A stretch of DNA of 63,724 nt, the filler included, from Choristocarpus tenellus KU-1152 (lineage: Eukaryota > Protista > Phaeophyceae): the NCBI GenBank assembly GCA_964200185.2. It is 11 parts of 11 records of this genome, joined end to end, with 100 filler letters (N's around TTAATTAATTAA, not from the genome) between each part and the next. Parts side by side here need not be neighbours in the genome. Positions count along the whole stretch, not along the records: positions 1 to 5,206 come from CAXNAD020011510.1; positions 5,307 to 9,739 come from CAXNAD020014576.1; positions 9,840 to 18,452 come from CAXNAD020004529.1; positions 18,553 to 22,495 come from CAXNAD020017012.1; positions 22,596 to 25,442 come from CAXNAD020024233.1; positions 25,543 to 42,273 come from CAXNAD020000782.1; positions 42,374 to 45,225 come from CAXNAD020024189.1; positions 45,326 to 48,500 come from CAXNAD020021771.1; 3 more parts are not named here. The stretch is one strand, 5' to 3'. The position numbers and the translations under genes were made by a program. The notes under the pieces were generated by a model. It was not told the origin of the DNA. It made no database searches and worked only from the letters and a program-made list of their open reading frames with translations. This document shows, in pieces, positions 1-51,159 of the stretch. The first letter of the stretch is position 1, and each line of letters starts with the position of its first letter.

Positions 1-2063
1 GGCCCTCTCGCAGGCACTGATAACCATCTCAGATGCCACCAGGACATGATTTTTCTCACGCACGACGATGGGACAGAGTTCACGTGCAACAAGCGAGTCA
101 CCGTCGACGACATCTTTGGCCATGGGAGTGATCCATCTCCTCCGGTGCTCCAAACCATGTGTGACGTCGAGCACCAAGGTGCTGCGATGGACATCCCCAT
201 GAGGTCCCTCCACTTCCTCGTTAACAGGTTTGTTAATTACGTCACACACGCCCTTCTTCATGGGAGCAACGACATTTTTTGTATAGGTGTAGATCATCGT
301 TAAACAGTAACGCAACAAGCTGGGTGACGGTTCAGGGGCGTCAAACCATACCATGAGTGTGTTTCCCTGAATCAGTATGTTAAGCGTCCAACTGCACCAA
401 GAGTGTGTTGCCCTGTATCAGTACGTTACTCGTACATTGCCATATGATGAATCTGTGCACAATACAATGTACTCCTTGGGATAATTTACGACCTTCCCTC
501 CTATGATAGCTACACGAATCCTGGGGACACCGCCGTCTCCTTCAGCGCAGAGAGGCACAACGTGACGGAGGCAGCCCTTGAACGGAGCAGGAGGGTGGAG
601 GTGTTCGTGTTCAACGTGGCGTCAAAGGACGATGTGAAAGAGAAGATGGAGACCTCCTTCGGCCGAGCCTACAAGAACGGCAAGTGGAAGGTAACAAGGG
701 TGTGCTGACTTCCTTCCATTTCTTTCCAACTTGTTGTCTGTCTTGGTTCGCTATTGATAGTGTCGGGCGTGCGGTTGTGGTAGTGATGCTTCCTTGTCCA
801 TGTTTACACATTGCTAACACGGTGCACGCGGTGACCCACATCACAAACGGAAATCGTGAGACCTCAAGACTTTGTGTGTGAGTGTCGGTACGTCGTAATG
901 TCCTCCTTCCCCACACGAAAAAACAAACGTGCTGCGGTACACCTCAAGATCTTGAACCAATGCTGGAATAACCCCTACGTACATGACGTAACCTTATCGC
1001 ATGGCAAACACTTCAATGCCACATGATTGGGCTGTCACATGTACGCACATGATGTTGCAGGTATCCACGTCTCTCGTTCAAGAACGCGTGATAGGCCCTT
1101 CCTGCCTGCCGGAAGCCTTGGGGCAGACCCTCGTCCCAATTGAGATGCAGCGATGTTTTGCTGATGCCGTCAATCCTAAGGGAAAGGCAATGGGACGCGA
1201 TGAGGCGACCGTTTTCGTTGCGAAGACGGTGGCGACGGACTTCGACTACCAGATCGAGGTGAATCTGGCATAGAATGCACTTCGTAACATATTTGTCAAG
1301 AACAAGTGGCAGAGTCGCGCTCTTGGCACGCAGTAGACACGTTTTTTTTCTCCCCGAGTCCTAATCTATCTAATGTGGCACCCAAATACGTCGCGTAGAA
1401 GACTATGGGCCTTGCGGATAAGTATTGGATCCGTTGTGTTTTCAACACTTGCCACAATAATGTTGCCGTTTTTGCACCACCTTCGGTAGCGCACCTCCAA
1501 ATCACGTCCATTCATGAATGACCGAACTCTGGCCCCCCCTCCAACACCCCTCCACCCCCCCCAACCCCACCACCGTCTTTGTCTTCCGCAATGCTCAGTC
1601 GATGCAAGCTCATCCTCGAATCCCACCGAAATGGCCTTATTCCCGCTTGACAGGAAAGACTACAAAGTCGGCAGAAATGACCTCCCTGCATGGGGTGATC
1701 TCCAAGTGTGCAACTCTCGATCAGAGGTCTTCCGTTCGATCTCTCTTGACGACCAAGAAGAACTGCATTCGGCTGCTTCATGTGACCAACAACAACCAGC
1801 TCAAGTGCATGCTTTTGCCTGGAACGGAGGTGTGTGGACCGCGCGCAGAGCTCTACTTGCGCATGGCAGCCACTTGCCCTCTCTACTACATGTGTTGGAC
1901 CGAGAAGGCAGACAACGCCAACATTGAATTCTCAAAAGTTCCACAGAGCGGAAGCTGTGACGAGGTCCTCCTCCCCTTCTCCCAGGTTGGCCCCGGGCAG
2001 ATGTTCGTCACACCCGTAGTCGGGAGGGTGTGCAAACCCCGGGCAAATAATGACACGAGATGA
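1..2063 (+). CDS. Spliced gene, 5'-truncated by the window edge: degenerate beta-class amino-DNA-methyltransferase-like region followed by a SET-like region (copy 1). Exons 1-227, 510-690, 1061-1258, 1599-1985 (or read-through to stop at 2063)
   Basis: GT..AG introns with matching phases (228-509, 691-1060, 1259-1598) give an open frame GPLAGTDNHLRCHQDMIFLTH...MDIPMRSLHFLVNS|YTNPGDTAVSFSAERHNVTEAALERSRRVEVF...GKWK|VSTSL...DFDYQIE|...LYLRMAATCPLYYMCWTEKADNANIEF. The two splice junctions shared with copy 2 fall at the same positions. Domain calls come from motif resemblance only. Confidence 0.6.
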
Positions 2064-2574
2064 CCGTTTAATGTGCTCCCGGGTCTTACGGTAGTGTATT
2101 CTCGTGGGTCATCATATAATGTCAATACTCGTATGCACTCAGTGGTAGCTTCTTCTTCTACTTGGCGACGATAGCAATTTAACAAATTAATAATATGAGA
2201 AAATAACACTTCTTCTCAGTCAGTCAGCCATCCATAATGACAACGAAACACCGCCCCGAAAAAAAACTTCCAAGTACTATTATTTTCTACCACCTCCACC
2301 ATCGACAGTCAAACGACTCCACCAACCGCACTAATTTTCAAGCAAGCAAGCCAACACAGGGCATATATGTACACGACAATCAAACGAAATCATTGCCACC
2401 CCCCATATACTGTCCTACTACCACCTTCGGGATGGATTACCATTCGTAGCGGGACCCTTCAAAAGTGCTGCAACATGTACAGAAAAAACATATGGGCACT
2501 TTCCGCGCACCATTTTGGGTCAAACTCATCCTCCATAGTATGCTCCATCCTCAATTTTGGTGATCGGCTGTTAT

Positions 2575-2671
2575 CTCATAACAGAAATGATAGCCAAGAT
2601 TACATCAGAATTGCAGCATTGGATTTTGTCCCCCAAATGGACGCGGCTCTACCCCTAAGATACTTTGGCTC
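2575..2671 (+). mobile_element. MITE family A, right-hand fragment
   Basis: Ends ...CCCCAAATGGACGCGGCTCTACCCCTAAGATACTTTGGCTC, as in the full copies at 22144 and 44691. Confidence 0.8.
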
Positions 2672-3279
2672 TGTGTGTGGAGTAAATGGACGAGCAAGTT
2701 GAATTTCTGGGATCATCTATCTATAGGTTACTATTATTGTGAGGGAGCAAAAAATTGTTAGGGTGCATTTTGAACGTACGTTACTCAGTGTGAGAAACAT
2801 GTTTTGAGATATGTATGGTTGGTTGGTTATGCTGACGATAAGTTTATAGTGAGTGATGTTGAATGTTCGGTTAAGCAAGTTGAGATTGTGTGTTATGGTC
2901 AAACAAAGCGATCGTTTGATGGTGATTTGTTGTACAGTTGAATCTATGGATGAATCTAGTGGCCGTTCTTGTGTGAGTTGAAGCAATAGCAGTGTTGACA
3001 TGATGACCTAGGCATGAGTTGTTGTTGCCCAAGTTGCCTATTCGCATCTGACTGAATCACAATGGACAAGACAGGAACCGGTTTGGGATCCTTATCGAAT
3101 TTCTTCTGGTACTTTGTGCCCAGGTGGGAATGTTGCTTCTAAATCCACCTGTGGTTATCATGGTCGAATAAGGCAGGTAGTGTAACAGACTGAAGGTGGT
3201 TGATTGTACATCCAGGATGCTCTCAGTCAGTTAACCAGTTTATTAACCTCTTAATCGGAGATGAACTGCTGAAGCACAC

Positions 3280-3590
3280 AGGGGAACCACCTCAGCCTTG
3301 GGGAACTACCACTGTTACACCTTTTTCACTTTTTGTAACGAAGCTTAGGGATGTTGTTCGCACATAGGTCAGAATTAGAGGGTTAGAGATAGGTTTTAGA
3401 AAATGTATGTGAAACAGTGCAAGGTTGTGGATCTTTCGACGGTTGTGGTTCGCAAGTGTATATTGGACTAGTGCACCACTTCTAGAACGTTTCTGGTTAG
3501 GGATATCTTTCACATAAAGTTAGAGCTAGGGTTAGGCTTACGAAAGCTCCTGTGAAAAAGTGAAAAAATATTGCAGTGGTGGCTCCCCTT
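3280..3590. mobile_element. Short element with about 45-bp imperfect inverted repeats and telomere-like internal sequence
   Basis: GGGGAACTACCACTG...TTTTTCACTTTTT...AAGCTT (3300-3346) is inverted relative to AAGCTCC...AAAAAGTGAAAAAA...CAGTGGTGGCTCCCC (3544-3588). A related copy lies at 52040-52220. Confidence 0.5.
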
Positions 3591-5206
3591 TGCACTGCAC
3601 TACTGTTGCTCTGCTACTTACTGTTCAATTTCCTTTTGTGTCACAAGGTTTTGTGTGGTGACCCAACGTAAATACATTGCTACATGTGTTCCCAAGCAAA
3701 CATTTATTTGGGGAGAGTTGGGAGGAATCCAAGGGAAGGGAACGCTGATGGCATGTAGAAGTAGAGTAGTATCAGTGATAAGGTGAAGATGGTTGCAAAA
3801 GAAGAGGAATAGGAAAGCAGGAGGAGACAGAAGGATAGTCCGTGAAAGTATTGTCATCCTTCAATTCCATGTCACCTGGAATCACGTGCCTTCTTCGTGA
3901 GTAAAACAAGACAGCATGCCTGCATACATGACGTACGTTTCTCACAGCATCTTCTCATCGACTTTTTTTTACTGTACACGACACACTACATTGGGTTTCA
4001 TTGGTTGATTCACCAACCAGCACTCCAGAATGCTACCGAGCCATGAGTATTAGTACCATCACCTACACACACAAACATTATGTTCTAACTCAGCAATAAA
4101 TTGCTTTTACCATCCAAGCAATGCATGCAAGTGCGTCACTTGATGGACCAGATTAAAATATAAAAAAACTACTTCAAAGCCACCTTTCATTGTGCTCACT
4201 GCAGGCCTAATTGGTCGACACTCTACTCACTTGCAGCTGAATTGACCTGCCAGCAAATCTACTTGATTGGGCAGGACTGCATGAGATAATATAGATGCGT
4301 AAAGCAAGTATCAAACATGGGATGGGGAAACCAAAAATCCCTCAAAAGGTTTATGTAAACTGGAGAGAAGCATCAAAGACAACGAAAATGAGACATTGCT
4401 CTTGATAGTAAAATCACAGTAGGAGTGGCACACTCAGCCAGCACCAACCAAGAACAATCTGTTCTCGAGTAGGAAAAAATAAACGAATTTAGTGGCATCA
4501 ACAGTAGGTGCATCACAACCATCTCGGCACACCAGGATCACTGCACATACTTCGCTTACAAGATAACTCAGAACCACAGAAACTGTCTAGACTTGAGATT
4601 TCCAACCTCACTTGACAGGAGTGGTCTTGTTTTCCACTGCCCCCCTGCCCCCCTCAACCTTACCATTCTTCGAAACCTCCCATTTAGCAACAGGCATCAC
4701 AATTTACGCATCAGCGGAGGCCACATCCTTCTCCAAGTTCTATGGGATCCATACAACCTATTACTACCAATGTCACCCTCCCCTTCCCCTCATTCCAGAT
4801 TCAGGATGCCCTCTCAACTCTCGACATTTAAAAGAAGAATCCTCATCTGAATACTCAAAAATTATGCCACATGCCTTAAAAGCTATCCCAAAATGTTCCA
4901 ACTCATCCCAAAACAAAAAAACTATCCCATTGACTGGATATACTCAGTTGCCCTTTGCCCAAGAAGCATGCGGCAACATGCATTGGCACAGCCTGCAGAC
5001 CATCTAACCTACGCCCCGCCCCCCCACCCCCCAACAACCTCTCAACCTAATTTGCGCGAAATGTCATATCCCTGGTCTTCCTTTCAACCAGGTCTCAGAG
5101 CTCCCAGACTTATTTCCTCTCAGCCCCCCAATATAGGAAGACCCCTTCCCCCCCTGTCACTAAGAATATCCTATCAAAGGACATCCCAGATGGAGAACTG
5201 CCACAT

Positions 5207-5306
5207 NNNNNNNNNNNNNNNNNNNNNNNNNNNNNNNNNNNNNNNNNNNNTTAATTAATTAANNNNNNNNNNNNNNNNNNNNNNNNNNNNNNNNNNNNNN
5301 NNNNNN
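5207..5306. other. Artificial contig linker N44-TTAATTAATTAA-N44 (also 9740-9839, 18453-18552, 22496-22595, 25443-25542, 42274-42373, 45226-45325, 48501-48600, 51160-51259, 59071-59170)
   Basis: Ten identical 100-nt blocks whose 12-mer gives stops in all six frames. Confidence 0.97.
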
Positions 5307-5734
5307 AATAGTGATTGCGGTGCTGTGATGACCCCTTCCTGACACAGCCCCCCCTCCCCCCCCCCCCCCTTCGCCCCGCTCCACCCCCCCACCCCCAAAC
5401 TCACTTGCTCTCTCCTCCGTGAAATTTCTTTGATTCTTTTATGTAAGGTCTGGGCATGGGCATAGGCATGGGCATGGGCATGGACATGGACTCAGATTTG
5501 GATTCGGATTCGGATTCGGACCAGGAAGGGGGAGGGGGAGGGGAAGGGGAAGGAGGCGTTGCTGCAGGTAAGAGAGACGCCTTCGAGAGCATTACCAATA
5601 CCCATGTAGTCATCCCTATACAGTATTCCTGGTTGTTATAGTTTTGGCTTGTGAGTACCCCCAGAGACTCTCCGATGTGGAAGCTGTGTTAGTGTCTATG
5701 TCTTGTATTAGGAGTGTGGTAGTATTTATGTCTT

Positions 5735-5737
<3 letters not shown>

Positions 5738-5769
<32 letters not shown>
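5738..5769. repeat. (ATT)n microsatellite
   Basis: Direct reading. Confidence 0.9.
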
Positions 5770-5904
5770 GAGTTGTGTGTGTTGATGGTTGTATTTTATT
5801 GTGTCGTTGAGGTTATGGTACAATTGTTTTATTTTGTCTTGAAGATTGAATGTTGTCAGGTTTGTCAGGTTGGAAAGACAAATGGCATCGCCATCACACA
5901 GATA

Positions 5905-6000
5905 CATATGTATGTGTATATGTGTTGATGTAATAGATGTATGTACGTATGTATGTATGTATGTATGTATATATGTATGTATGTATAGATGTATAGATGT
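5905..6000. repeat. (ATGT)n-like degenerate microsatellite
   Basis: Direct reading. Confidence 0.8.
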
Positions 6001-6101
6001 CTCTGCAGTGGTGAATAATATGTGTGTATGTTGTTCAAATGCAGTGGTAGAAGGATAGGTGTTTTTTTTGTGATCTCATTGTACTGTTTGGTGTTGTTCA
6101 G

Positions 6102-6327
6102 CATGTACTATATATATACATGTACTATATATATACATGTACTGTATATATACATGTACTATATATATACATGTACTGTATATATACATGTACTATATAT
6201 ATACATGTACTGTATATATACATGTACTATATATATACATGTACTGTATATATACATGTACTATATATATACATGTACTGTATATATACATGTACTATAT
6301 ATATACATGTACTGTATATATACATGT
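6102..6327. repeat. 17-bp minisatellite CATGTACT(A/G)TATATATA, about 13 units, mostly alternating A/G variants
   Basis: Direct reading. It explains the repetitive ORFs at 6022-6464. Confidence 0.9.
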
Positions 6328-7576
6328 ATGCTGGAGTAATATTTAATGTGAGACTAGCATTGATCGTGTTTATTGATGTATTTATAAATGTATATATAAA
6401 TGAATACATGCCTATGTTTTGTCACTTGTTTATTATTATTATTAGTATCATGTCTGATTTTTAAATATTTGTAACGTAGAAGCGGCCAAACTGGCTCTGT
6501 TTATTGATATTTTAAGACGATGATTGTTGTGTATTTTGAAGGTTTGGTGATGGACCGCAGGAAATAGTGTGGAAATTTCCCAGAACTGCAGTTTGCTTAA
6601 AAAAAAACCCTATGCTTCTAATTGTCCAGTCTCAAGGACCGTCAATCTGTACTTTATGCAGAGTGTTAGAGTAGTTGGATTCTTCATGTGTGTCATCCTC
6701 CTCTGATAGAGGCGACTGTCTTGATTGCAGTAGTGGTTGGCTTGCCTATTGTGGTTAGGGTCATGGGAAGCATGTGGTACACTGTTATTAGTAATTGATG
6801 ATGGTACAATGTCCAACCAATTCCAACTAATGCTAGAGTACCCTTTTTCCATGTCCAACTAATTACTAATTACTAACTAACTAATTGCAGTTATACCTTT
6901 GGGTCACGTTGTTCTGATTCCACCAGACTTGTGCTGGTTCAGTGGAAACCAGGGATATATATATATATATAAATAGAGTTGGTGAAACAGTATGGCCAAC
7001 TGTGAATAAATCTGATGGTGGTATGATATATTGAATCTATACAGTCAGCAGTATCTGTGTATATTGGTGGTATACCGTATGATGTCATACCGTATGATGT
7101 CATACCGATCCTACAGTCCTCCCAGTTACATTGTTGGTGGGAAAAAACAAAAAAATGGTATAAATACACTGTTCTATTTGCTTTCCTGGTGGAGGCAGAC
7201 ATCCCAAAACCTATGCCCATGGGCTGAAAGTCAGTTAGATGGTGGTCGTAGAGCACGTAGATGAGGTGGTGAAGTGGGCATTTGCCCCCTCCCCCTCACC
7301 ATTCTTGCTTAGTGTGTGTGAGGTGTACTGTGGTGTAGCAGGCGAAGAGACACCTACATTCTATGTTGAACTATATTGCAATCACTTTTGGAACGTATTT
7401 TTGTGGGTAAAATGGTTGCTTGAGTGTGGTCCGTTATTATGGAGAGCTTTTGAAGGTTGTGTGCCTGGTGTGAGGTTGCATCAGTTCCTATCAACACACT
7501 CTCACTTCAAACAATATGCAATATGTATACTTGGGTTATGTATGTTGATAGGAGTTGATGTAACCGTTCACTAACC

Positions 7577-7751
7577 CAGCCTCTGTAGGGCTCTACCATG
7601 TTAATTGTCTTCAAGTTGGAGGGCATTTTACTGTCAGCCTCTGTAGAGCTCTACCATGTTAATTGTCTTCAAGTTGGAGAGCATTTTACTGTCAGCCTCT
7701 ATAGGTCTCTACCATGTTAATTGTCGTCAAGTTGGAGAGCATTTTACTGTC
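7577..7751. repeat. About 58-bp tandem repeat x3
   Basis: Unit CAGCCTCTGTAGGGCTCTACCATGTTAATTGTCTTCAAGTTGGAGGGCATTTTACTGT. Confidence 0.85.
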
Positions 7752-7757
7752 ATGGAC

Positions 7758-7836
7758 ATTGTATTGGAAATTGTATTGGAAATTGTATTGGAAATTGTAT
7801 TGGAAATTGTATTGGAAATTGTATTGGAAATTGTAC
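7758..7836. repeat. 12-bp minisatellite ATTGTATTGGAA, about 6 units
   Basis: Direct reading. It gives the IVLE repeat in ORF 7656. Confidence 0.9.
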
Positions 7837-7911
7837 TGTCCCAATCAAGAGAGTACGAGAGGGTTGAAGGTCCATTAACGGGTCAAACCAACTACAAAAG
7901 GTAGGCGGCAT

Positions 7912-8022
7912 TGCATTTTAAGAATGACATTTTAAGGATGGCATTTTAAGGATGACATTGTAAGGATGGCGTTTTAAGGATGACGTTTTAAGGATGGCAT
8001 TTTAAGGATGACATTGTAAGGT
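7912..8022. repeat. 13-bp minisatellite RCRTTKTAAGGATG-like, about 8 units
   Basis: Direct reading. Confidence 0.8.
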
Positions 8023-8235
8023 TAAGGAACTCTCTCAACAAAGGGCAAAAAAAAGTTATTTTGTCAAACATAAAAAAATCAGGAAGAGCCTTTGCTGAAT
8101 TGTTGTGTCACAGTGTGTGTGGGAAAGAGATGATATGATTATCGATTTTTCACTATCGTGCACTTAAAAGCAATGGAATAGGGTGTGCGTTGCACAGGGT
8201 AAGGAAGACGACTTGGAATGCAAAAAGGTTCCAAA

Positions 8236-8267
<32 letters not shown>

Positions 8268-8604
8268 TGTATGTTTTTTTGACTCACAGCATAGTCTCGT
8301 GGTGTTGCAGCCAAGTTGTAGGTCTGTTGCCATCCAGTTGATGCATGCCCTCGTTGCAATAGAGTAGTTAGTTACTAGTTAGTGTGAATTATTACCTATA
8401 TATCGGGTTATCGGGTATGATTTAAAGTCTGTGCGCTTGTCTTACGGTTATAGGGTTAGGGTTAAGGTTAAGGTTAGGGTAAGGGTTGGGGTTTGGCTTG
8501 TTTTGACCTTTTTTGGTCTCTACTGTGACAGTATAGAGGCTGTTCCCTCACTCTGAAGGAGTGGAAATCGGATAGGTTTATGATGTGTTGATAGGTACGA
8601 CTTG

Positions 8605-8958
8605 GGGTCAAGAGTATGCATGCTGTTTTGGTCAAGAGTATGATGTGTTGGTCAAGAGTATGATGTGTTGATCAAGAGTATGATGTGTCGATCAAGATTA
8701 TGATTTGTTGATCAAGATTATGATGTGTTGATCAAGAGTATGATGTGTTGGTCAAGAGTATGATGTGTTGATCAAGATTATGATGTGTTGATTAAGATTA
8801 TGATGTGTTGATCAAGAGTATGATATGTTGATCAAGATTATGATGTGTTGATCAAGAGTATGATGTGTTTTCAAGATTATGATTTGTTGATCAAGAGTAT
8901 GCTGTTTTGGTCAAGAGTGTGATGTGTTGATCAAGAATATGCTGTTTTGGTCAAGAGG
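8605..8958. repeat. 20-bp minisatellite GATCAAGAKTATGATGTGTT, about 17 units
   Basis: Direct reading. Head-to-tail units with no spacers. Confidence 0.9.
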
Positions 8959-9840
8959 GGGGAAGAGTGCTTTATTTGAGTGTTGTATGTTTATGGCATG
9001 TGTTTGTTATGTTTGCAACCACGACTGAGATGGAGGCAGTGGTCGATGCTTTTTTGGACTTTGTGTGCATTTTTAATTTTTTTTTGGTTGTACTCTTGAC
9101 TCTTGACTCTTTGCAGACATATTTTGTTAAGGGGGGNNNNNNNNNNTTTTTTTTTTGTTTTGGGTGGGGGTGTTGTTTTTTTTTTTTTTTTTGTGGGTTT
9201 TTTTTTGGTTGGGGGGGGGGGGGGGACAAGAAGAAGTGACATGGTAGGGAATGCAGCAAAAACCCTGAAAGAGCTGGTGTTTCTTAGAATAGGCCTTCCT
9301 GTAAGACAGTGCTTGCACTACACTCCTGGGTGTATGGAAACAAGAGATGTAGGAGGATATGTGCAGTCAGAGCTACCCCATAGACTTGCGATATGAAAGC
9401 GGATTATAAACAAGGGTATAGATTTCCCGGAGTTGGTCAGGTCCCACCTTGACAACTAGCCCAGTGTTTTCAGCTTTAATGCATGGGGGTACACTGTGAT
9501 AGTCCATTTGTGATCAGCCCACCGATTTGTATTTTCAAATTGGAGATCGCCGCTGAGGAGATATTGGGGTGTCAAGAGACAATGTAGTGGTGAAAATATG
9601 CTTCTGATTTATTGAAGAAGGTAAATTAGTGATATGCCGTTGTCGGTTTCTTTCTACATTAGTACTTAGACCACCGTTATTTTTTTTAATTAACTTGGTT
9701 CCTGCTCATGTCCATTGTGTTCTTCCCCCCAGATCGGCANNNNNNNNNNNNNNNNNNNNNNNNNNNNNNNNNNNNNNNNNNNNTTAATTAATTAANNNNN
9801 NNNNNNNNNNNNNNNNNNNNNNNNNNNNNNNNNNNNNNNA

Positions 9841-9909
9841 CACCAAAAAAGTGAAAATCGAAAAAAGGGTGAAAAACGGACGCTGACACCCCCCCAGATA
9901 CTTTGACCC
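9841..9909 (+). mobile_element. MITE family C, right end
   Basis: AAAAAAGTGAAAATCGAAAAAAGGGTGAAAAACGGACGC...CCCCAGATACTTTGACCC, closely matching 57539-57605. Confidence 0.75.
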
Positions 9910-12396
9910 AAGTCAGACGTCGTACATGATTTGTTCTTTCATTATTCGTGGCGAATCGCTCCTTGAGGAAGTTTCCAATCTCGTCCCTCCGACTTTGAGC
10001 AGGGACTGCAAGTCGATTGGCCAAAACCAATGCCTCAGTAGTCATGTTTCCGAACGGGATGACATGAAATGCAGGGAGGTTCTGCACAGAGGAGAAGAAG
10101 GATCAGGAAAGGGCAAGGTTTGTTGACAGGAAATCAAAAAGGTCTACAGTAGAGCTGTGAGCATGATATATGTACTCCGGAGTATACGTTGTATCACTTG
10201 TCCTCAAGGTTGAAGAAACGCTGCAATGATATATTTGAGGGTGGAGGGGTAGCATTAATGTGAGCAACCAAGGAGAGGAAGCTTCTGTATGTTTCAAAAA
10301 CAACTTGATGGAATTTGAAACTGCTGGGGAAACCTTCATTATCGACTATATACAAAACGATTGTGGGCATCGTCGTATTTAGTAATCCCTGTCTTAAAAA
10401 AGCTTGCAAATTGTATGATCAGTGGCATGTGCTTGAACGTTGAGAAGAGACAAGGGTTGCAAAAAACGTTTGCCGAAAAAACATTGAAGAACCTAAATTG
10501 CAGGCCGCAGATTATTTTCCAATGACAGATAACTATCTATACATATAATTCTAAGCGTTTTACTTTTAGATCACTAGATGCCGCTTTTTATTAAGTATGT
10601 AACTCTCAGTGACACCAGCAACATTGAAAAATCACAATCGTGGCTCAGCAAGAAACATCATGTAGCGGGACGCAAAGACATATTACCTTGCTTAACAACT
10701 CGTAAGATACGTGTTTTCCGCACGATGCAAAAGAAGTATTCCCGAGTACTTCATAACCTATTCTTGGAGTACGATGGAGATGAGGCCAATCAAAGTTTTG
10801 AACTGATTATATTACCAAATAACCTCACATGCATAATCCGTCAAAGCCTCGAAGATAGGGGAAGTGAGAGGGTGAGAGGGAATTGTCGTACCTGTTTCAA
10901 GTCGCAGAAACAATGTTGTGGTCGAAAATGAGTGTTGATCTGCTGGAAAATGATAAATGCAGGACAGGGTGAGATATTATTATAGTGGTAATAAGGGGAC
11001 AGTCTAGGGCGAGATAGATTGCAATGAGAGAAATCATCGATCCACCTAAAATGAGGCCATAATCAGCATTGTGCCTTGCGAAATAAGGATCAGCGTTAAC
11101 ACTAGATATTTTATGGCAGTAGACTCACGTAAGATCATTAACTTTGTATGAACCACCCTAATCAAGATTCTACCTCATGTAACGCTTATCCCCCTCTTAC
11201 TTCATACTCAAAAAAGATCCCATCAGATTGACGAGCTACAGTTACCTTGCCTTCTTGCTTGGAACCACGATACACAGTCTGGGCCATGCTCTATGCTGAA
11301 TGCAGTACACGTTCTATCTCGGAATTACAGGTTGAACGTTGAACAAGAAAGGTCTCCGCACAACTCGATAAAGCGTACACCATTTCAATGTACGCCAAAC
11401 TATTGCAACTTAAAACAATTAAATACTTTAGCTAGCTCTATAGCATGAGATATGTGGTTGTGGTAAAAAAAAGTTATTCAGCATTGTCACATCCAATCAA
11501 AACTCAACTCAAAATATTGCAGCAGTGTAACTCAGGAAATGCAGTGAAAATGCCTGCATGAAGGAAGTACGGGCAAGTAAAACAATGCAGGCAAAAGTGG
11601 ACATACACATAATGTCCTAGGCATAATGACGACTGGTCAGGACACGTTTCTGGATAAATTAAACAGGAGTCGAATATTTATCATGTCATGGCCACCTGTT
11701 TTAGTGCACGTTCTCACCCACCTTGCATGGCCCATACTTTTCCACACTCCTCTCGATTCCGGCAACAAGAGCAGCAAACATTTGTTGCGGCACTGTCTCC
11801 ATCAGGACTTGCCATGTTGTGTCAGAGTAAGAGAACATTAAATGAATTGAAGTTTACACTGACAATGTCTGACGAAGTAGCAATGGAATCTTTCACCTTA
11901 TACACCCATACATCTCTGTAACAAACAACCGGCATCTAGCTCGATTAGCGACCCCCAATCTCCTATGAGAAATGTTCCAAGTACGCAGGAACTAAAAATT
12001 GCAATCCTCAAGTTGTGAACGAGAATGTCTTACTATGCTGGGTTTCAAAGAGGATACGGTTTGCTTGTAAATGGTTGCGCCTGCTTATAAGTGAATACAT
12101 CAATCCAGTATTTATAGCATTATTGATATCATCACATTTGGTCCATCTTTCAGACACACTCACAACACCATCTACCACAGTGGATATGCAGTAACATGAA
12201 TAAATTACTGCACTGAACAAAACAGAATCCACAGCATGCAAGAAAAAGAACCAACATAGTTGAGGGAAGGATGCATTGCATGCCTACACATAGCACTGGT
12301 GAGGTGCGTGCATTTCACCTCAAACAAGGACCCAATATCATGTGGCAGGAATGGTCTTGTTGAACCAGAGGTAGTATAAGGTAAGAACATTCTACT

Positions 12397-22143: not shown

Positions 22144-22399
22144 GAGTGAACGTATCTTAGAGGGTACGAGCTTTGCCCTGTTTGTCTGTTTGGGATTTGG
22201 CTTCCCACGTTTTTTTTGTGCTATTTTCCTACTACGAAATGTTATGGAGTAGGTAAAAAATTACGTTTTGAATGGTGTGTTCAGAAGAAGGATATTGACA
22301 CTTACAAACAAGCACGATAGCCAGAATTACATCAAAATTGCAAAATTGGATTTTGGTCCCCAAACGGAAGCGGCTCTAGTCTCTAAGATATTTTGACTC
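22144..22399 (+). mobile_element. Complete 256-bp MITE family A, GAG...CTC termini, perfect TGCA TSD
   Basis: TGCA (22140-22143) GAGTGAACGTATCTTAGAGGGTA ... CTCTAAGATATTTTGACTC TGCA (22400-22403). Confidence 0.9.
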
Positions 22400-37705: not shown

Positions 37706-38899
37706 TTGTAGGTCGAATTGCTGGTCATGTGATGGCTCCCTGGTGGCCCTCAAAGATGCTGATTGGGGTCTTGATTCCAAAGTCAATGGATGAGAGGTGA
37801 CTCCAAAGGTAGTGGCCTCTTGAACTGCATGGCTCGCAGTACGGGTCTTACTCTATGTGTTGGACAGGGTAAGAGTAGATAAGACTCTTTTTGCTGGGGG
37901 TTGGGAAAGGTAGACTGGTGAGCGCACTTTTGAAGGGCAGAGCGGGGGCCACCCCAAAGTCAGCTTAGGGGATTGCTAGAGTTTCAATCTCGGTCGTTTC
38001 TCCCTCCCCATTTTGCAACAGCTGTGCTCTGACTCCAATCTTTGGTGCTCGTGGTTCTTGTCCCCAAACTACCTGTTGCCATGCTTTATATCTAACACTT
38101 TGTGGAACCTCTGGAAGATTCATTTGCTCACCATGGAGCTATTCAAACTTGCCAACATTAGTGTGCATCTGTTTCACATCCTTCTCACCCTTCTGGTTTA
38201 CCTATTCCAACATCACCTCTTCTCCCACTCGTTTTGAACCGCTTTGATCTAACTTCTCAAGCACAGCAATGGACCTCACCATTGGTAGTTATGTGCAGTC
38301 ATTCTCTCACCATGGTTTTTAACACAACTAAACACAATACATTTGGAGAGTGTCAGCTACTTCCTGCAGGGGGAAGCAGTACTCAAGAATGTTTTTAATA
38401 TCTTGTGGAACATTTTGAGTTAGACAAATATATATATATATATAGTTGGAAACGTAGGGGCAAACAAGATGTCATGATGTGGAACTGAAGATACGTGCTG
38501 TTTTAGATCTTGAAGAAATACTTCAGAACCTTAAAGTAGACTGGAGGCATTCAAAGCATATATAATTTGCAACGGTTTAATTTATCAGATGGATTATATA
38601 TGGAATGAAAGCTAACATCCTAACATATTAATCAGGCGATAGTAGCACCTTTGACACACAACATAGCATGTAATAGGATGCATAACATGGAGTATTTCTC
38701 TTTTGGGAGAATGGTTTTGCTTATTCATGACACTAGAGGTAATTCATGGGAAACGCTGATATACACTGGACTCATAGGGTATGTTTTTATTTTGGTGGTT
38801 CAAGTCATTTTAATTGTAAGATGCTGAGCCTTGCACTTGATGGCAAATAGATTAATCTATGTAGACAATGACAGTCTCTTCAACATCCTTCTAAAGGAC

Positions 38900-39450: not shown

Positions 39451-42053
39451 AACATGGGGTGTCGATAACTCAAGATTGATTTTGGGTGTCGAAAATCACC
39501 CTGGACAGGTATCTGCATCTAGTCCTCTCTCTAAAGACCAAGTTCGGTATTCCTTACTTTCCTTGTGCAACCTCTAAGAATCGGAGAATCATTAAGACTT
39601 GCAAGGTTCCTAATTTTCATCTATTTTCATGTGGAAACCATCATTTGAATGTTTAGAGATAGGCATCAAGTGTTGTACTGACTTGCATCTCAAGTCATGA
39701 TCTTTCACCCGATTATGTTATCAGAAGTAAACATCATGTATGAAACGGAGTATTTGTATGTAGAGGTGACCAATTGGCCAGATTATCACTAAAAATGAAA
39801 ACAATAAGTACACAGAAAGTGATGCAAAATTCTGGATTACTATTTCCATCCAAAATAGTTATATTTCCTTCAATCTATTGATATCACTGTTCTTGAGTCT
39901 CAACACAGAAGAGCAAAATTTTCAGAGATGGGAGGAGGTGATGGCAGAGAGGTACCAAATACTGTTGACAAGCATCTAGCTGTCTATCACTGTGATTTTT
40001 CTATTTTCTTCAAATCTCGTGTAGAACACATGTGTTGATGTTCCACTACCCTTGGCAGCTTACTGTTTGCCTTACCCAATTTCTTGGTGCGGTTTTGTCG
40101 TGTGTGCACTACCATTGAAGTCTTCAAGCATCGTTCTTGAGTACCGTTACCACTCCCAGAGTATGCCCTCTCCCTTCCACTTTCCTGCCTGATGACAAGA
40201 ACTTTCAGCATGAAGAACCCTGGGGGGGTTTGACTCAGATCCTCAACAGGCTTGTAATTGTGTGTGATGTGAAGGAGTGGATAGTGTGAAACACAAAAGG
40301 GAGCTGAATTTTCTTTTTTCACCTAATCCGTGTGTAGTTCAATTCAATGACTCAGAGTGGAGTTTGATCTTCAGGGTATTGCTGAAATGTTGTACGGATA
40401 GCATACTTTTCAATATTTTTTCTATTTTTCAATTTTCAGTGCAGCAGCATAGCACAGTTATTTTTGGAGGAATAGACTTTTGATATCTCATTCTCCCTGT
40501 TCAGGACCGGTGGAAGGAATTCAAATTCATCTAGGTTCTTTTTGTTGATTTGTAAAGATACAAAAGCAGGTTACTCATTTTGTTCAAAGCCAACAGTAGA
40601 TATACCCACTCTTGTTTTTTACCAGTACAAAATAATCTGTTTCCTAACTGTTTCCATCTTGTGGATTGTTTGACTACCATGCAGGAAGATTGTGGACATT
40701 GCTGTCTTTCTAAGGGATGCATGGAATGGGAACAATGAACAAGGCTATGTGACGGCACAAGGCTATCGTGCATAGTAGTAACTGCGCAGTTGACTCTACT
40801 TTGCAGAGGACTTTTGAACAAATTGCCTTGCTGTGCACATCTATCACTCACCAAAATTTGTCTATTTTTTTGTTTTGTGCATTATGTTATTTGTCCTAGA
40901 GGTCGTGTACCCAAGTGACACCATCTAGTTTGTTTTTTCCTGTTCCATAATTGATGATATACCATTGGCTTTGCCTGAAAATCAACATTAATTAGAGGTA
41001 ATACTATCGCACAGAATTTCCCACAAATGTAAATATGATTTTTTGTCCACGTATGGGTAGCAACATTGTGAGGGTTATCGTAAGTGTTAGGAATCAGTAA
41101 TTTGTCAATGCCCATCTCGAACAGAGTTGAGCGCTCTAGCCATGTCCCATATATTTTTTACATGAATGGAGCCATCTTCAATAGTCATCCTGAATGTGGC
41201 TGTGTTGTGTGTCGCAGTGGTAGAGGGAGTGGGTTGTTGCAGCAGGCATCTCCAGCTGAGGAAACTATTAAATGATTACCCCCTGTATAAATCGATAGTC
41301 ATTGTTGCTGCTCATGTGTGGCACAGGCTGAGAGCAGTGCAATTGTGTCAGTATATTCCAATGGACAGCGAGGGACAGCTTTAATTCCTCCAATTTTGAT
41401 ATTATTCCTTCAGAGTAGTAAGTTTGTAGCATAGTTGATCTCTCATGGTCTACATACATACTGTGTTTCAAGAGTCAACAACTCCCAATTCTTCTACCTA
41501 TTGGATGCAAGAGTGAAGTCTTACCTACCCTAGCACATACTAAATGGAGCTTAGTGTAGAAGTAGTAAATGTTAATAGAGCTATCACCATCCTTTTATGT
41601 GGGGAAAGAGAACAATGTGATTCAACTGCTATCTTCACACCTGCTGATAGTTGATCGATAAATGTGCTGTACAGCTTTGGTTCCCCTCTGGAGCTCTACT
41701 TCTATTTGCTGCTTTCTATGGGTTTATTGATCCTGAGCCCTACCAGATGAACTAAGAAAACAAGTTTATTGTATTAGAATGAATGAGTTCTCAAGCAAAA
41801 ACTGGGTATGCACATTCCGGGCATATTGGGACAGGGCAAAGGTTTCCTATACAATATACGGATAGGGTTACAGAGGGTACATTACCATTGCGCTTGTTTC
41901 GTCCAACTTACATCAGCACCTACTGCTGTGGTCATACTAGTAGTAGGATCGTTCTCAGTAACCATTGTTTTAATTATTACAAAAGTGTACCATTATGCTA
42001 TAAAATAAATAGCAACAAAAAAATGAAATACTCTTAGTGTTACTAATACGAAA

Positions 42054-42245
42054 GGCTCAAAGTATCTGAGGGGGGGGAGCGGCTGTTCATTTGGGGTCAA
42101 TTTTTTCATGTCATGATTTTGGGGTGATTTGGTTGCATACTTCGGATGGATAATGTAAATACGCTTTTCCTGATTTTGGTCCTAATAGACACCCTGGTGT
42201 AGACCCCCCCCCCCCCCCCCCCCGCCCCCCCACGCCCCCGCATCC
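42054..42245 (+). mobile_element. MITE family B (poly-G/poly-C subtermini)
   Basis: GGCTCAAAGTATCTGAGGGGGGG...GACACCCTGGTGTAG-C-run, colinear with 45069, 51307 (reverse) and 55974. Confidence 0.8.
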
Positions 42246-43260: not shown

Positions 43261-44690
43261 TGAATGAGTCAGGGGCGGCGAGCGTGTGATTGCTCTGTGT
43301 TTGTGAAAATCAAGAGTGGGTGATGAGTGGGTGAGGTGGGGGGGTGATGATAACAAAATTGGAGATGAGCCTCAAGAGGGAAGAGGAGTGAGAAGAGAGG
43401 GGATTGATTTTTGAGAGTGAGTGACTTGGTGGGAAGCATATGATGCCTTACGTCATCGATATGGCTTCATCCCTCCGTAATTATTTTATTTAACGAGTGT
43501 ATGCACCGATGATCGCTGTTGCTAAGAAAGCGTCCAAAATCGTGGGTTTTGAGATTTTGTCGTGAGTGTGAGGGGTAGTCACTCTCTCACTAAAAAGATG
43601 GTGTTGCAGAGTATATAATATTTTTTCACCCATTCTGGGATTGTATTTGGGCTATGTTCAGTATTCTTATTTTTGGTTCTGAATGGTGTTTGTACTTTTA
43701 CTTTGAAGAACTTGTTTTTTCTTTTTCATTGGTGATGTGTTGCTCTTCGGTAGTTCAACCACAAAAAAATAAAAAGATGTTAGGTAGTAGAGACTTCAGA
43801 CTAATGCAGCAGTAGTACCACTGAAGCATGACATCATCAGAGTGGCCACTTACTTCAACATTGAGTATTTGGGAGGCGTTGTTTGTAACTTACCATGGGG
43901 GTTGTCTTTTATGAAGGAATCAAGAATCTGGACGTTCTTGGTTTTATTATTGAAGAGGGTCACCTATGTCATTGGAAAATGAGCAATGAGTAGCAAAAAT
44001 CCTTCCTTGTATCTCAGTACATCTATTTGTTAAGAGAACCTAGTAAGATATTCACAAGATACAGCTCTAGACTGACAGAGCAGATATTAGATCATCGCAA
44101 GGGAATTAGATCCTTTTTGTTACTGCAAAAATAATAAATAAACAGCTGCTGGTGATATCTACTTGGAAGAAAATGTACTTACTGTTCCCAAACTGATAGA
44201 ATCCATAGGCGCTTCAGTAAAGAAATTAATTGACATAAATAAACAATTCAATTAATTAATTAAATTGAGGAAGTACCGGGCGTAGCGAGCGAAGAAGTTT
44301 CAAAAACGCGAATCGTGCGTTTCGTGCACGATAATCAATGATAGACTAATCAAAATTGGAAGTGAAAAAAGAGGGCTTAATGTGAGCGTATTATTATTAT
44401 TATTATTATGAGCAGTCAAGCAGGGCTCTCCCCCAACGTAGCCTGCTGAGTACCAAGAAACGCCTACCTTTGCATGAATAATTAAACAAAAACCGCAGGC
44501 CAGAACCAACATGAATAGTATGATTGTACTCTCTCTCTCACAAATAGCAGCAATGCTAGCAGCAACAACAACTTAACCAAATCTTAAGTAAAAAAGTTAC
44601 TAGGTTAAACTTAATTTTTCCCCTGTGATCTGGTGGGTGTAACACCAGTCCCCTCCAATTTGATATCTCATGGGCTCGCTCGAATCTCGG

Positions 44691-44964
44691 CAGCGGAAGT
44701 ATCTTAGAGGGTACACCTTTTACCCACCCAGTTTGTCCATTATTTGGTGCTTGTCTTCCCATTCATGTTTTTTTTAATGACATTTTCCTACTACAAATTG
44801 TTTCGGAGTAGGTAAAATGCTCATTTTATGAAAAGGTGTATCCAGAACAAGGATATTGACACTTCCTAACAAACACGATAGCCAAAATTACATCCAAATC
44901 GCAACATTGGGTTTTGCCCCCCAATTGGACGCAGCTCTACCCTAACCCTAAGATACTTTGACTC
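44691..44964 (+). mobile_element. Complete MITE family A
   Basis: CAGCGGAAGTATCTTAGAGGGTAC ... TAAGATACTTTGACTC. Flanks TCGG/TTGG (4-bp TSD with a CpG transition). Confidence 0.85.
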
Positions 44965-45068
44965 TTGGTCCCCACGGAATTCTGATAACGTTATCACCAG
45001 AAATCCCGCTTCCATGGTCACTTGGCTACTCCGTGGTGCTCATGAGTGCTGTGGACTACACCTCTTGA

Positions 45069-45225
45069 GGCTAGAAGTATCTGGGGGGGTTGCGACTGTC
45101 CATTTGGGGTAATTTTTTTCATGTCACATTTTTTGGGTGATTTGGTTCTGTAATATGGATGGGTAATGAAAGTGCAATTTTCCTCGTTTGGGTCCAGTCC
45201 AAATGGACACTTGGGTGTACACCCC
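45069..45225 (+). mobile_element. MITE family B, cut by contig end
   Basis: GGCTAGAAGTATCTGGGGGGGTTGCGACTGTCCATTTGGGG...AATGGACACTTGGGTGTAC. Confidence 0.8.
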
Positions 45226-48600: not shown

Positions 48601-48706
48601 ATTGACACTTCCTCAAAAACATGATAGTCAAAATTACATCAAAATCGGAACATTCGAATTTGACCCCGAAATGGACGCGGCTCTACCCTCTAAGATACTT
48701 TGGCTC
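48601..48706 (+). mobile_element. MITE family A right end at contig start
   Basis: ...ATGGACGCGGCTCTACCCTCTAAGATACTTTGGCTC. Confidence 0.8.
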
Positions 48707-48754
48707 CCATGCGATAAGGTTTTGTCATATATGTATGGGTTAGGGTTAGTTGGT

Positions 48755-51159
48755 TAAAGATGTTGTGATGTACTGCAGCATGCTTTTATGTTTTTTGTTT
48801 GTGTGGGAATGGGGATGTTACGGCGTATGCATGTGATCACAGCAAAGACTTGGGGACTCGCGATTTCCAGTGGTGGTGTGGGTAACTGCGTGCACAAAGT
48901 TGGCTACTCGTAACCATCTACAAGGAAACATCAGCAGTACAATTGCAAGCTCGAGACCTATTATCTGTAGGGTTGGTAGTACAAACAACAAGTTGGAAAG
49001 CAATGTAAAAAAAAAGCCAGCACACCCTTCTTACCTTCCACTTGCCCTCCTCGTAGGCTTGGCCGAAGGATGTGTCCATCCTCTGCTTCACCTCGTCCTT
49101 TGACGCCGCGTTGGACACGAACACCTCCACCCTCCTGCTCCGTTCAAGGGTCGCCTCCACTACATTGTGCCTCTCTGCACTGTAGGAGACGACGGTGTCC
49201 CCAGCATTCGTCTACCTAGCGTGGGAGGGCAGTTCGTAAATTAGCCCTAACGTGGTATTGTATTGCGCACGGATTCATCATTTCGCAGTGTATGCAGTAC
49301 GTTCCGATACAGGGCAACACGATTTTTGTTGTTTCCACGCTTAACGTACCGATTCGGGAAATAAACTCGTGGTATGGAATGACGCCCCTGAACTGTCACC
49401 CAGCTCGTTCTGTTACTGTTTAACGATGTCCTATACCTTCTACAAAAATAAATAAAAATCGCTGCTTCTGTGAAGAAGGATATGTGTGACGTTATTGATG
49501 AACCTGTTAACTAGGAAGTTGAGGGCCGTCATGGGGATGTCCGAGGCAGCACCTTCGTATTCGACGTCCATCATGGAGTGGAACAGGAGACGTTTTACGT
49601 CCGTGGCCAAAGATGTCGTCGACGGTGACTCGCTTATTGCATGTGAACTGCAGCCCGTCGTTATGGGCAAAACAAATCATGTCCTGGTGGCTTTTGAGAT
49701 GGTTGTCTGTGCCTAATTGAGGGCGCCCCCCCCTCCTCGTCTTGTATACTGGCATTAGGGGATGATCCTCTAATGACAAGCCCACCTTCGATGCAGTAAG
49801 AGCCTCTGAATGAAGAGAATGCGGGAGGGAGCGAGTGGTTGGACATGTGTCAAACTTGACTGTGACATCACACAAGTAGTCATGGTAGGGATTCATGAAA
49901 TCTCGCACCACTAACGTTATACTAGTACAATGAGTGTGGAACGCAAGGCAAATAATCAATTTATAAATTGCAAACAATAGGATATAAAGTAATAATCGGA
50001 GAAAGTATGGCAAAAATAATGTAGTGAAGACGAGTAACACCAGAATTCGCGAAAATGGACAATGAAACAGATAAGTACGTAATTGCCGGGGGGAGAGAGC
50101 AAGCGACACAAAAGGAGGTGGAAAGCACGAAGGACATGAAACAATATGGGAAAAGTGAAGAATTTAGGAAAACACGGGGATTCATAGAATCTCGTGCCAC
50201 CAATATTATACTAATACAAAGAGTGTGGAACGCAAGGCAAATAATCAATTCATAAATTGCAAACAATAGGATATAAAATAACAATCGGAGAAAGTATGGC
50301 AAAAATAAGGTAGTGAAGACGAATAACACCAACATCCGCGAAAATGGACAATGAAACAGATAAGTACGTATTTGCCGGGGGGAGAGAGCAAGCGACACAA
50401 AAGGAAGTGGAAAGCACGAAGGACATGAAACAACATGGGAAAAGTGAAGAATATAGGAATAGAGCACGACAATCCCACCAATGTCGACAATCATCTCACC
50501 TGCTGGTACATTTTGTGGATATCTGCGATTGACACATCTTTCTTCTTCCTCTGTCGCTTGATAGCTTCTTGAAGCTTGTGCTGAAAATATATATTATCGT
50601 ATAACGTGCACTCAACCACACTCTCTGTCGCTTCGTTGAATGCTATAAGCATAGCGGTGCAGTGGGCGAACGGGACAAGTGTTAGGTGGGGGGCGATCGT
50701 GGGACACACGCGGCCTGCGACATCAAGAAACATGTTGCTGTGGACAGGAATACCACGATGGATAAAGATGATGAGCAAAGAAAAGGACCACAACGGACTT
50801 ACCGTCAATGCACATAGCAAGGCAAACTCAACAACAGCTTCATATATCATAATAGTCATCAGGCGATTATGGAACAACGAAAACAATCTGTCACCCACCG
50901 TTGGCAAGCAGCCTTTCTTCAGTTTGGTCGAACTCGATGTAGATCCGCATGGTGAAAGCGCTCTCGGGATCAAACAATTTCTTCAGCACCGTTACTCTAT
51001 GGTTTCCGTCCAATACTCGCCCTTCAATGGCAAGCGCTGCTTCGGGGCTTAGCTCATCCGTATTACCTAGACTTTCTCGCTGGATGACAACACTTGGAGC
51101 AAACTGATTCAGCCACCCTTTCTCCTCTATAGACTTCCTCACGCGCTGAAGGCCACGCC
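48755..51159 (-). pseudogene. Copy 2 of the ParB/Srx plus degenerate DNA-methyltransferase-like gene. Exons 51159-50899, 50642-50500, 49805-49504, 49215-49035
   Basis: RGLQRVRKSIEEKGWLNQFAPSVVI...GRVLDGNHRVTVLKKL...IYIEFDQTEERLLAN|AFNEATESVVECTLYDNI has the ParB/Srx DGxHR motif and a downstream Asn. Later exons match copy 1. There is a frameshift near 49590, an in-frame TAG at 49214-49212, and a phase mismatch implying lost exons between 50500 and 49805. Confidence 0.7.
49889..50460. repeat. About 289-bp tandem duplication inside copy 2
   Basis: GGATTCAT..AATCTCG...GAGTGTGGAACGCAAGGCAAATAATCAATT...GAAAAGTGAAGAAT occurs at 49889 and again at 50178. Confidence 0.9.

What the first reader, a model, noticed from the sequence alone, without database searches (positions are those of the whole stretch)
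1..51159. Multi-copy spliced gene family with an apparent ParB/Srx + pseudo-DNA-methyltransferase + SET-like architecture
Seen: two diverged copies on different contigs (1-2063 +; 48755-51159 -) overlap over about 950 bp with identical splice sites. Copy 2 adds upstream exons with RKSIEEKGW...VLDGNHR...ANAFN on the same contig, and copy 1 adds downstream exons. Established: DGxHR after SIxxxG...P is the ParB/sulfiredoxin signature. Beta-class amino-MTases (Pfam N6_N4_Mtase) end with KPxxLxxxLIxxYSxPGDxVLDPFxGxGTTxxAAxxxGR, and ParB-MTase fusions are known from prophages. Inference: DIPMRSLHFLVNS|YTNPGDTAVSFSAERHNVTEAALERSRRVEVF aligns position by position to that tail, and ALTASKVGLSLEDHPLMPVYK...NHLKSHQDMICF fits the upstream segment. 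This would be a prokaryote/phage-derived ParB-MTase module that gained introns, fused to a SET-like domain and amplified in a eukaryote. It is a candidate chromatin reader or mobile-element anti-silencing factor. I do not recognise this combination as described.
Basis: partly seen in the sequence, partly recalled or inferred. Interest (0 to 1): 0.85.

Follow-up and report, generated by a model that had tools for sequence, protein, structure and literature searches.

The report
Seaweed transposon's ParB pseudo-methylase cargo gene
Two broken copies of a highly repeated, intron-containing gene, likely from a brown seaweed and likely carried by a cut-and-paste transposon, belong to a family whose protein joins a ParB-like domain to a DNA-methylase-shaped domain lacking the usual catalytic motifs, so it likely binds the element's DNA rather than methylating it; a ParB-plus-methylase cargo gene is already described in another brown alga, and the proposed histone-methylase (SET) part found no support.

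Summary
Two spliced copies (77% identical over 1022 bp) lie on separate contigs, and one Ectocarpus gene model (888 aa) matches the coding exons of both in order. The first domain has a ParB-type fold. The middle has a beta-class N4/N6 DNA methyltransferase fold (Foldseek E 4e-7; Z 11.7), but the relatives that span it have neither the DPPY-type nor the FxGxG motif, so it is likely a pseudo-enzyme. The SET claim is unsupported: no Pfam, PDB-sequence or profile match and no NHS motif. The last domain stays unassigned. Summed contig depth is over 200-fold above unique flank and ends sharply at about 2671, in a terminus shared with a MITE that has a 4-bp target duplication. So this is likely DNA-transposon cargo (Sola-like; transposase not seen), not a host chromatin gene. 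Both window copies are broken. A ParB + N4/N6-methyltransferase gene on a Sola element in Ectocarpus, and methylase + SET genes on red-algal Plavaka elements, are published. What I did not find in print is the loss of the catalytic motifs, the unassigned C-terminal domain and the low CpG depletion of the element. Moderate-to-low interest.

The parts
50899..51159 (-). Copy 2, ParB-type exon (cut by contig start); DGNHR at 51010-50996
50500..50642 (-). Copy 2, second exon (end of ParB region, start of helical region); ends in phase 0
49806..50499 (-). Copy 2, 694-bp interval with a ~290-bp tandem duplication (49888-50170 / 50177-50459); the exons for the helical region, the linker and the first half of the MTase fold are absent
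49504..49805 (-). Copy 2, MTase-fold exon A; frameshift near 49575
49035..49215 (-). Copy 2, MTase-fold exon B with decayed SAM-binding motif (SYSAE); in-frame stop at 49214-49212
48601..48706 (-). Terminus of the MITE family abutting copy 2's intron, likely an insertion (cut by contig end)
1..227 (+). Copy 1, MTase-fold exon A (cut by contig start)
510..690 (+). Copy 1, MTase-fold exon B; SFSAE at 538 where active enzymes have DPFxGxG
1061..1258 (+). Copy 1, exon C (linker after the MTase fold)
1599..2108 (+).
2575..2671 (+). Likely right end of the element; ends in ...CTAAGATACTTTGGCTC, shared with the MITE family; depth falls to single-copy level beyond it
22144..22399 (.). 256-bp MITE with the same terminal motif, GAG...CTC ends and a 4-bp TGCA duplication on both sides

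Best explanation
The two stretches are broken copies of a spliced, highly repeated gene that likely rides as cargo on a Sola-like cut-and-paste DNA transposon of a brown alga, and the intact protein would be a likely non-catalytic DNA-binding helper built from a ParB-type domain, a methyltransferase-fold domain without its catalytic motifs and an unassigned C-terminal domain. Shown: the exon order in one gene model of a relative, both folds (by predicted models), absence of the DPPY-type and FxGxG motifs, high repetition, a sharp end shared with a MITE, and lesions in both window copies. Inferred: the ParB and helical part binds sites in the element, perhaps as a nucleotide-gated clamp. The pseudo-methylase likely keeps DNA or partner binding without methyl transfer. 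The complex likely favours the element's activity or shields it from host silencing, made in trans by a few intact copies. The basic-plus-acidic tail seen in relatives likely serves nuclear targeting and chromatin contact.
For: P0172 (Ectocarpus sp., 888 aa) matches the coding exons of both copies in order, 40-69% identity. The Cladosiphon model P0036 also joins the ParB and MTase parts. Relatives' models end exactly at the window's donor after exon A (P0043, P0049, P0149) or read through the donor after exon B (P0151). ParB: Atlas structure rows TM 0.63-0.69, all 8 rows from clusters carrying ParB_N; DGxHR in 95 of 111 aligned stretches. MTase fold: Atlas features 0.92 to N6_N4_Mtase clusters; Foldseek best E 4e-7 to TTHA0409, CcrM, M1.HpyAVI; VIA Z 11.7, rmsd 4.4, 177 aligned to M.RsrI, with the top 11 rows all beta-class amino-methyltransferases. 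No [DNS]PP[YFW] in any of 181 stored proteins and no [FY]xGxG in 8 of 8 relatives checked. Summed contig depth over 1-2088 is 4,679-61,197 against 20.8 in unique flank (run X1) and 742-20,335 against about 4 (run X2). Diverse flanks join at 2654-2671 and at 48706 (914 and 651 contigs, agreement 0.33-0.35). The terminal motif occurs 10 times in the window against 0.23 expected. dN/dS between the copies is 0.49 over 127 codons, p 0.011. Precedent: Sola1-1_Ec32 with a 1104-aa ParB + N4/N6-methyltransferase gene and 4-bp TSD (PMC12477816).
Against: No transposase, left end or target duplication of the gene-bearing element is in the window. That 2671 is its end rests on continuous depth and short contigs, none spanning gene to terminus. 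Depth is summed over contigs and is not a copy number. The termini (GAG...CTC) differ from Sola1-1_Ec32's AACCG-CGGTT. Only 1 of 7 coordinate pairs examined for MITE copies showed a clean 4-bp duplication. The folded model is a relative's, with mean pLDDT 41.7 (mostly 55-77 over the first half of the MTase part, lower elsewhere). Pfam finds neither ParB_N nor N6_N4_Mtase. The direct comparison with E. coli YhdJ is weak alone (E 0.019). The motif-IV region is not in the window, so its loss is known from only three distinct relatives. No palindrome array that could be a binding site was found in the pieces at hand. No function was tested.
Confidence: 0.6

Rival explanations
1. The intact protein is an active, divergent N4C/N6A methyltransferase that marks its own transposon, as proposed for the Ectocarpus gene.
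For: The full beta-class fold is kept. PMC12477816 predicts 4mC or 6mA production for the Ectocarpus protein. Only three distinct relatives covering the first half of the domain were seen.
Against: Neither catalytic nor SAM-binding motif is present in P0172, P0151 or P0036; the window copies show SFSAE/SYSAE opposite YhdJ's DPFAG.
Confidence: 0.12
2. The gene is a passive passenger: once useful, it is now carried along by non-autonomous elements with no current role, and its abundance reflects only the element's spread.
For: Both window copies are broken, and copy 2 lacks internal exons. Depth stays high on both sides of that gap.
Against: The stop and the frameshift are private: 86,540 of 86,555 depth units read a sense codon at 49212 in run X1. 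dN/dS is 0.49. Exon D is 57-67% identical to named Ectocarpus models.
Confidence: 0.18
3. One reading: a three-part ParB, pseudo-methylase and SET-like chromatin protein, related to the red-algal PAG2 (methylase + SET).
For: Methylase + SET fusions exist on algal transposons. By eye, exon D has strings that can be laid on a minimal SET domain (recalled motif, not from a call). A low-diversity profile can miss a remote fold.
Against: No Pfam SET hit at E up to 10 in 7 of 7 proteins. No SET among PDB sequence hits. HHalign against 51 viral SET-motif sequences scored 12.0, and 35 of 100 column shuffles scored as high. No NH[SA] motif.
Confidence: 0.12
4. The family is a host gene family or part of an endogenous virus, and the shared terminus at 2671 is an unrelated insertion.
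For: No transposase or left end was seen. MITE termini also abut other places inside gene copies (joints from 48706).
Against: Introns and the 3' flank are as repeated as the exons, up to one sharp boundary. 2415-2574 does not match the MITE interior. No viral relative was found.
Confidence: 0.08

Closest known systems
Accessory gene of Sola1-1_Ec32, Ectocarpus (PMC12477816; passages; supplement rows; figures and the FASTA supplements not seen)
   Same: Brown alga; DNA transposon cargo; ParB-like plus N4/N6-methyltransferase domains; 4-bp target duplication; size (1104 aa) of the order expected for this family. It may be the same protein family.
   Different: That paper predicts an active methylase and calls the gene Ectocarpus-specific. 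Here the motifs are absent in the relatives checked, relatives come from six brown-algal genera, an extra conserved C-terminal domain is present, and the termini differ. Sequence identity with that gene could not be tested.
Plavaka accessory genes PAG2 and PAG3, Bostrychia (10.1101/2025.02.11.637652; passages, section 8; supplements not seen)
   Same: Algal transposon cargo with N6_N4_Mtase-type and ParB-type domains, proposed to bind and modify the element's own DNA.
   Different: There the methylase is fused to SET (both found by Pfam) and ParB to a 2OG oxygenase in a separate gene beside inverted-repeat arrays. Here ParB and the methylase fold are in one chain, SET is not detected and no array was seen.
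Beta-class DNA amino-methyltransferases (M.RsrI, CcrM, M.PvuII, M.MboIIA, rotifer N4CMT) and the phage ParB-terminase locus methylases (PMC4738411; passages)
   Same: Same permuted fold; ParB-linked versions occur among the viral fold hits (rank 11).
   Different: Catalytic and SAM-binding motifs are missing, identity is only 9-18%, and the gene has spliceosomal introns.
VANDAL anti-silencing accessory proteins (as described in the Bostrychia paper) and inactive methylase-fold proteins such as METTL14 or DIRS1 MTase domains
   Same: Functional analogues: element-encoded self-recognition, and a methylase fold reused without catalysis.
   Different: No sequence relation shown; the analogy is inferred.

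Membership tests
Beta-class N4C/N6A DNA methyltransferase (PF01555) | Permuted Rossmann methyltransferase fold | tested here: met
   Model of relative P0172: Foldseek E 4e-7, VIA Z 11.7 / rmsd 4.4 / 177 aligned; Atlas features 0.92 for P0036
Beta-class N4C/N6A DNA methyltransferase (PF01555) | Catalytic (D/N/S)PP(Y/F/W) motif | tested here: not met
   Absent from 181 of 181 stored proteins, among them the three distinct relatives that span the region; that region is missing from the window copies
Beta-class N4C/N6A DNA methyltransferase (PF01555) | SAM-binding DPFxGxG motif | tested here: not met
   SFSAE / SYSAE / SLSAE / LFGAE / TFTAE at the aligned place; no [FY]xGxG in 8 of 8 relatives
Beta-class N4C/N6A DNA methyltransferase (PF01555) | Methyl transfer to DNA | not testable with these tools
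   Needs an assay
ParB/Sulfiredoxin N-terminal domain | ParB_N fold | tested here: met
   Atlas structure search of P0001: TM 0.63-0.69, 120-129 residues aligned, two rows meet the naming bar; Pfam ParB_N itself not hit
ParB/Sulfiredoxin N-terminal domain | Conserved GxxR-type nucleotide-binding motif | tested here: met
   DGxHR in 95 of 111 aligned stretches, DGNHR in 82
ParB/Sulfiredoxin N-terminal domain | CTP/ATP turnover or site-specific DNA loading | not testable with these tools
   Needs an assay
SET domain (PF00856) | NHS-type motif and profile match | tested here: not met
   No NH[SA] in P0172; no Pfam hit; profile score within shuffles, 35 of 100 as high
SET domain (PF00856) | SET fold | tested here: inconclusive
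   Model pLDDT under 50 over the whole domain; that part was barely tested in the fold searches
RAMA domain (PF18755) | Profile match of domain D | tested here: inconclusive
   HHalign against 20 motif-selected sequences (8 of 8 checked hit PF18755) scored 12.4; 17 of 100 shuffles as high
Cut-and-paste DNA transposon, Sola-like | High copy number with a sharp terminus joined to many different flanks | tested here: met
Cut-and-paste DNA transposon, Sola-like | Terminal inverted repeats and 4-bp target duplication | tested here: inconclusive
   Seen for the MITE at 22144-22399 that shares the terminus (1 of 7 coordinate pairs); the gene-bearing element's other end is not in the window
Cut-and-paste DNA transposon, Sola-like | Linked Sola DDE transposase | not testable with these tools
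   No genome held; no locus found in three contig collections
Sola1-1_Ec32 accessory protein family | Sequence homology to the 1104-aa protein | not testable with these tools
   The paper's FASTA supplements cannot be read here

The most novel reading that the evidence does not exclude
A brown-alga-wide transposon anti-silencing factor in which a bacterial-type methylase has become a catalytically dead DNA reader or base-flipper, loaded by a ParB-type clamp and carrying a C-terminal domain of a new kind. It keeps its element free of host cytosine methylation, which would explain why the element, introns included, keeps CpG at 0.8-1.0 of expectation in a genome otherwise depleted to 0.3-0.7, and why it has multiplied so much.
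Probability: 0.15. Interest if true: 0.65.

Novelty: new variant of a known kind. Interest (0 to 1): 0.32.

Why it matters
Transposon-borne ParB-methylase genes have been proposed to methylate their own element. If the brown-algal family is catalytically dead yet conserved across six genera, the benefit to the element must come from binding or recruitment and not from writing a mark. That changes which experiment to do on this cargo class. It also gives a testable entry into how transposons evade silencing in brown algae, which PMC12477816 calls largely unknown. If the Ectocarpus Sola1-1 gene proves to be the same family, the finding drops to a new member with a corrected annotation.

Tried and rejected
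Pfam scans of window exons and relatives gave no ParB, methylase or SET hit; PHROGs gave nothing meaningful. Profile searches of PDB sequences with the MTase-like and domain-D alignments gave only chance hits, best E 0.12 and 0.039. A single-sequence fold of the Cladosiphon protein was unusable, pLDDT 36, and was not searched. No SET protein appeared among the listed fold-search rows, but the model was poor there. SET and RAMA profile tests for domain D were within shuffles. No related locus was found in metagenome, viral or prokaryotic contigs, or in phage records; these searches find close relatives only. No RNA holder was listed, so the junctions are not confirmed by transcripts. No repeated palindrome was found in the element pieces. 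Alignments A3 and A7 had misplaced rows and were not used; A8 (13 rows) left out exon C and the short piece 49507-49575. Paper searches for ParB + adenine methyltransferase + Selaginella and for Sola terminal motifs gave nothing usable, so the rule that Sola2 ends are GRG...CYC with a 4-bp duplication is recalled, not checked. My first acceptor guess for exon D at 1652-1653 gave a stop and was dropped. No complex prediction was run.
Full report
Setting. The window is a concatenation of 11 small contigs separated by N-padded spacers; no whole genome is held. The ParB exons match a Choristocarpus tenellus protein at 92% identity. Of 22 relatives looked up, 16 carry a source name and all 16 are brown algae: Choristocarpus, Sphacelaria, Ectocarpus, Pylaiella, Cladosiphon, Scytosiphon. 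The host is therefore likely Choristocarpus or a close relative.

Observation. The two copies align at 77% over 1022 columns with equivalent GT..AG sites. Exons A and B are 80% and 87% identical, the introns 76% and 73%. Over 127 codons dN is 0.155 and dS 0.318 (ratio 0.49, Fisher p 0.011), which points to past selection diluted by decay. Both copies are broken. Copy 2 has a stop at 49214-49212 and a frameshift near 49575, and it lacks the exons between its ParB part and the second half of the methylase fold; the flanking exons are out of phase. A MITE terminus abuts its intron at 48706. Copy 1 has a frameshift near 1763 and a premature TGA at 2061-2063. Contigs from two runs of one study show that other copies read through the stop at 49212 and carry extra bases at 49573 and 1763, so these lesions are not family-wide.

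One gene. P0172 (Ectocarpus sp. CCAP 1310/34, 888 aa) hits, in order, 51154-50897, 50670-50512, 49824-49585, 4-252, 511-696, 1055-1258, 1616-1762 and 1713-2108. P0036 (Cladosiphon, 843 aa) independently joins the ParB and methylase-like parts. These are automatic gene models; no transcript was available. Comparing P0003, P0036 and P0172 gives the order ParB, helical region, a Cys-containing and acidic linker, methylase fold, linker, domain D, and a basic-plus-acidic tail.

ParB part. Pfam does not detect it. The Atlas structure search of P0001 returns ParB_N clusters in all 8 rows, TM 0.63-0.69. DGxHR is kept in 95 of 111 aligned stretches from the family.

Methylase part. Atlas features of P0036 555-843 point to N6_N4_Mtase clusters at 0.92 with 160 shared features; the tool treats this as a lead. 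A model of the C-terminal 497 residues of P0172 from a 13-row alignment has mean pLDDT 41.7, best over the first half of the methylase part. Foldseek ranks beta-class amino-methyltransferases first (E 4e-7; viral library E 5e-7). The Foldseek-independent search gives Z 11.7, rmsd 4.4 over 177 residues to M.RsrI, then M.BceJIV, CcrM, M.PvuII, TTHA0409 and rotifer N4CMT, against Z 6 or less for unrelated rows. Three methods thus agree, two of them on the same model. The motifs are gone: no (D/N/S)PP(Y/F/W) in any of 181 stored proteins and no FxGxG in 8 of 8 relatives. The first strand, where DPPY is expected by inference from the fold, reads VIVSIGAE, VLLNVGAF or FICLNRAP. I take it to be a pseudo-enzyme; this rests on three distinct relatives for the catalytic motif.

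Domain D. It is real and conserved (7 hits at 57-70% identity) but unassigned. SET was tested by Pfam, by PDB profile search, by motif and by HHalign against 51 viral SET-motif sequences, of which 3 of 3 checked hit PF00856. The HHalign score was 12.0, with 35 of 100 shuffles as high. RAMA, a recalled look-alike, did no better (17 of 100). The model is too poor there to judge the fold, so SET is unsupported but not excluded.

Mobile element. On 1-5206, 6122 and 4481 contigs were laid. Summed depth is 4,679-61,197 over the gene bins in run X1 against 20.8 for a 2395-bp contig identical to the unique flank. The tool warns that this is no copy number, but introns and the 3' flank are as repeated as the exons. 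The drop comes at about 2671, where many different flanks join. The last ~100 bp match the ends of a MITE family. Its terminal motif occurs 10 times in the window against 0.23 expected, and one copy, 22144-22399, has GAG...CTC ends with TGCA on both sides (1 of 7 coordinate pairs tried, several of them overlapping guesses at one nested locus). A 4-bp duplication fits both Sola families listed for Ectocarpus but also its Gypsy elements and unclassified DNA4 families. With terminal inverted repeats, Sola is the likely but unproven class. No transposase or left end is in the window.

CpG. Observed/expected CpG is 0.86 and 0.91 over the two element pieces (0.8-1.0 in introns), against 0.39 in copy 1's unique flank, 0.28-0.68 in the nine other contigs and 0.21-0.66 in three Copia fragments. 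This fits youth or protection from methylation. Against full protection, 19 of the 40 listed A>G/T>C differences I scored lie in CpG context against about 30% background; those rows are only the best-supported ones shown, so this is a hint. [quoted passage not shown]

What is known. PMC12477816 (passages and supplement rows) describes a 1104-aa ParB + N4/N6-methyltransferase gene on the 21.5-kb Sola1-1_Ec32 and suggests a class of accessory proteins that bind and modify their own element. It cites Iyer et al. 2011, which I saw only as a reference entry. The Bostrychia preprint describes methylase + SET (PAG2) and ParB + 2OG oxygenase (PAG3) on Plavaka elements. PMC4738411 covers ParB-linked phage methylases and inactive methylase domains in DIRS elements. 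Five searches found no paper stating that the brown-algal proteins lack catalytic motifs or describing domain D; subscription papers and the unread supplements could hold this. Earlier unreviewed notes of this scan report similar cargo, some with lost motifs, on plant Sola elements; I did not test them and they are not counted as support.

Verdict. A real, repeated, spliced gene with ParB and methylase folds, likely transposon cargo and likely catalytically dead, present here as two pseudogene fragments. The design is published. The motif loss, domain D and the CpG pattern are the additions. New variant of a known kind; interest 0.32.

Noticed in passing
window 12397-12919, 21357-21608, 22144-22399, 44689-44964, 48601-48706: Very abundant ~255-bp MITE family, partly nested, sharing the terminus at 2671; summed depth near 1e6 at 48601-48686 in run X1.
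   Followed up: partly
window 1-2671 and 48707-51159: CpG observed/expected 0.8-1.0 in the element against 0.28-0.68 in the other contigs.
   Followed up: partly
window 20914-22156 (-) and 37143-37793 (+): Decayed Copia-type retrotransposon fragments: integrase, SH3-like and RVT_2 hits.
   Followed up: partly
window 42053-42216, 45068-45225, 51323-51493, 55975-56136: A second dispersed ~160-bp repeat family, in both orientations; an ORF at 55298-55717 next to one copy had no Pfam hit.
   Followed up: no
window 17513-17854, 18173-18452, 58393-58714: A third dispersed repeat, 64-75% alike.
   Followed up: no
P0148 (Ectocarpus model): Looks chimeric: it joins a piece of the helical region directly to domain D, which suggests internally deleted copies in Ectocarpus too.
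   Followed up: no
window 6102-6328 and 8578-8957: Tandem arrays with short units.
   Followed up: no
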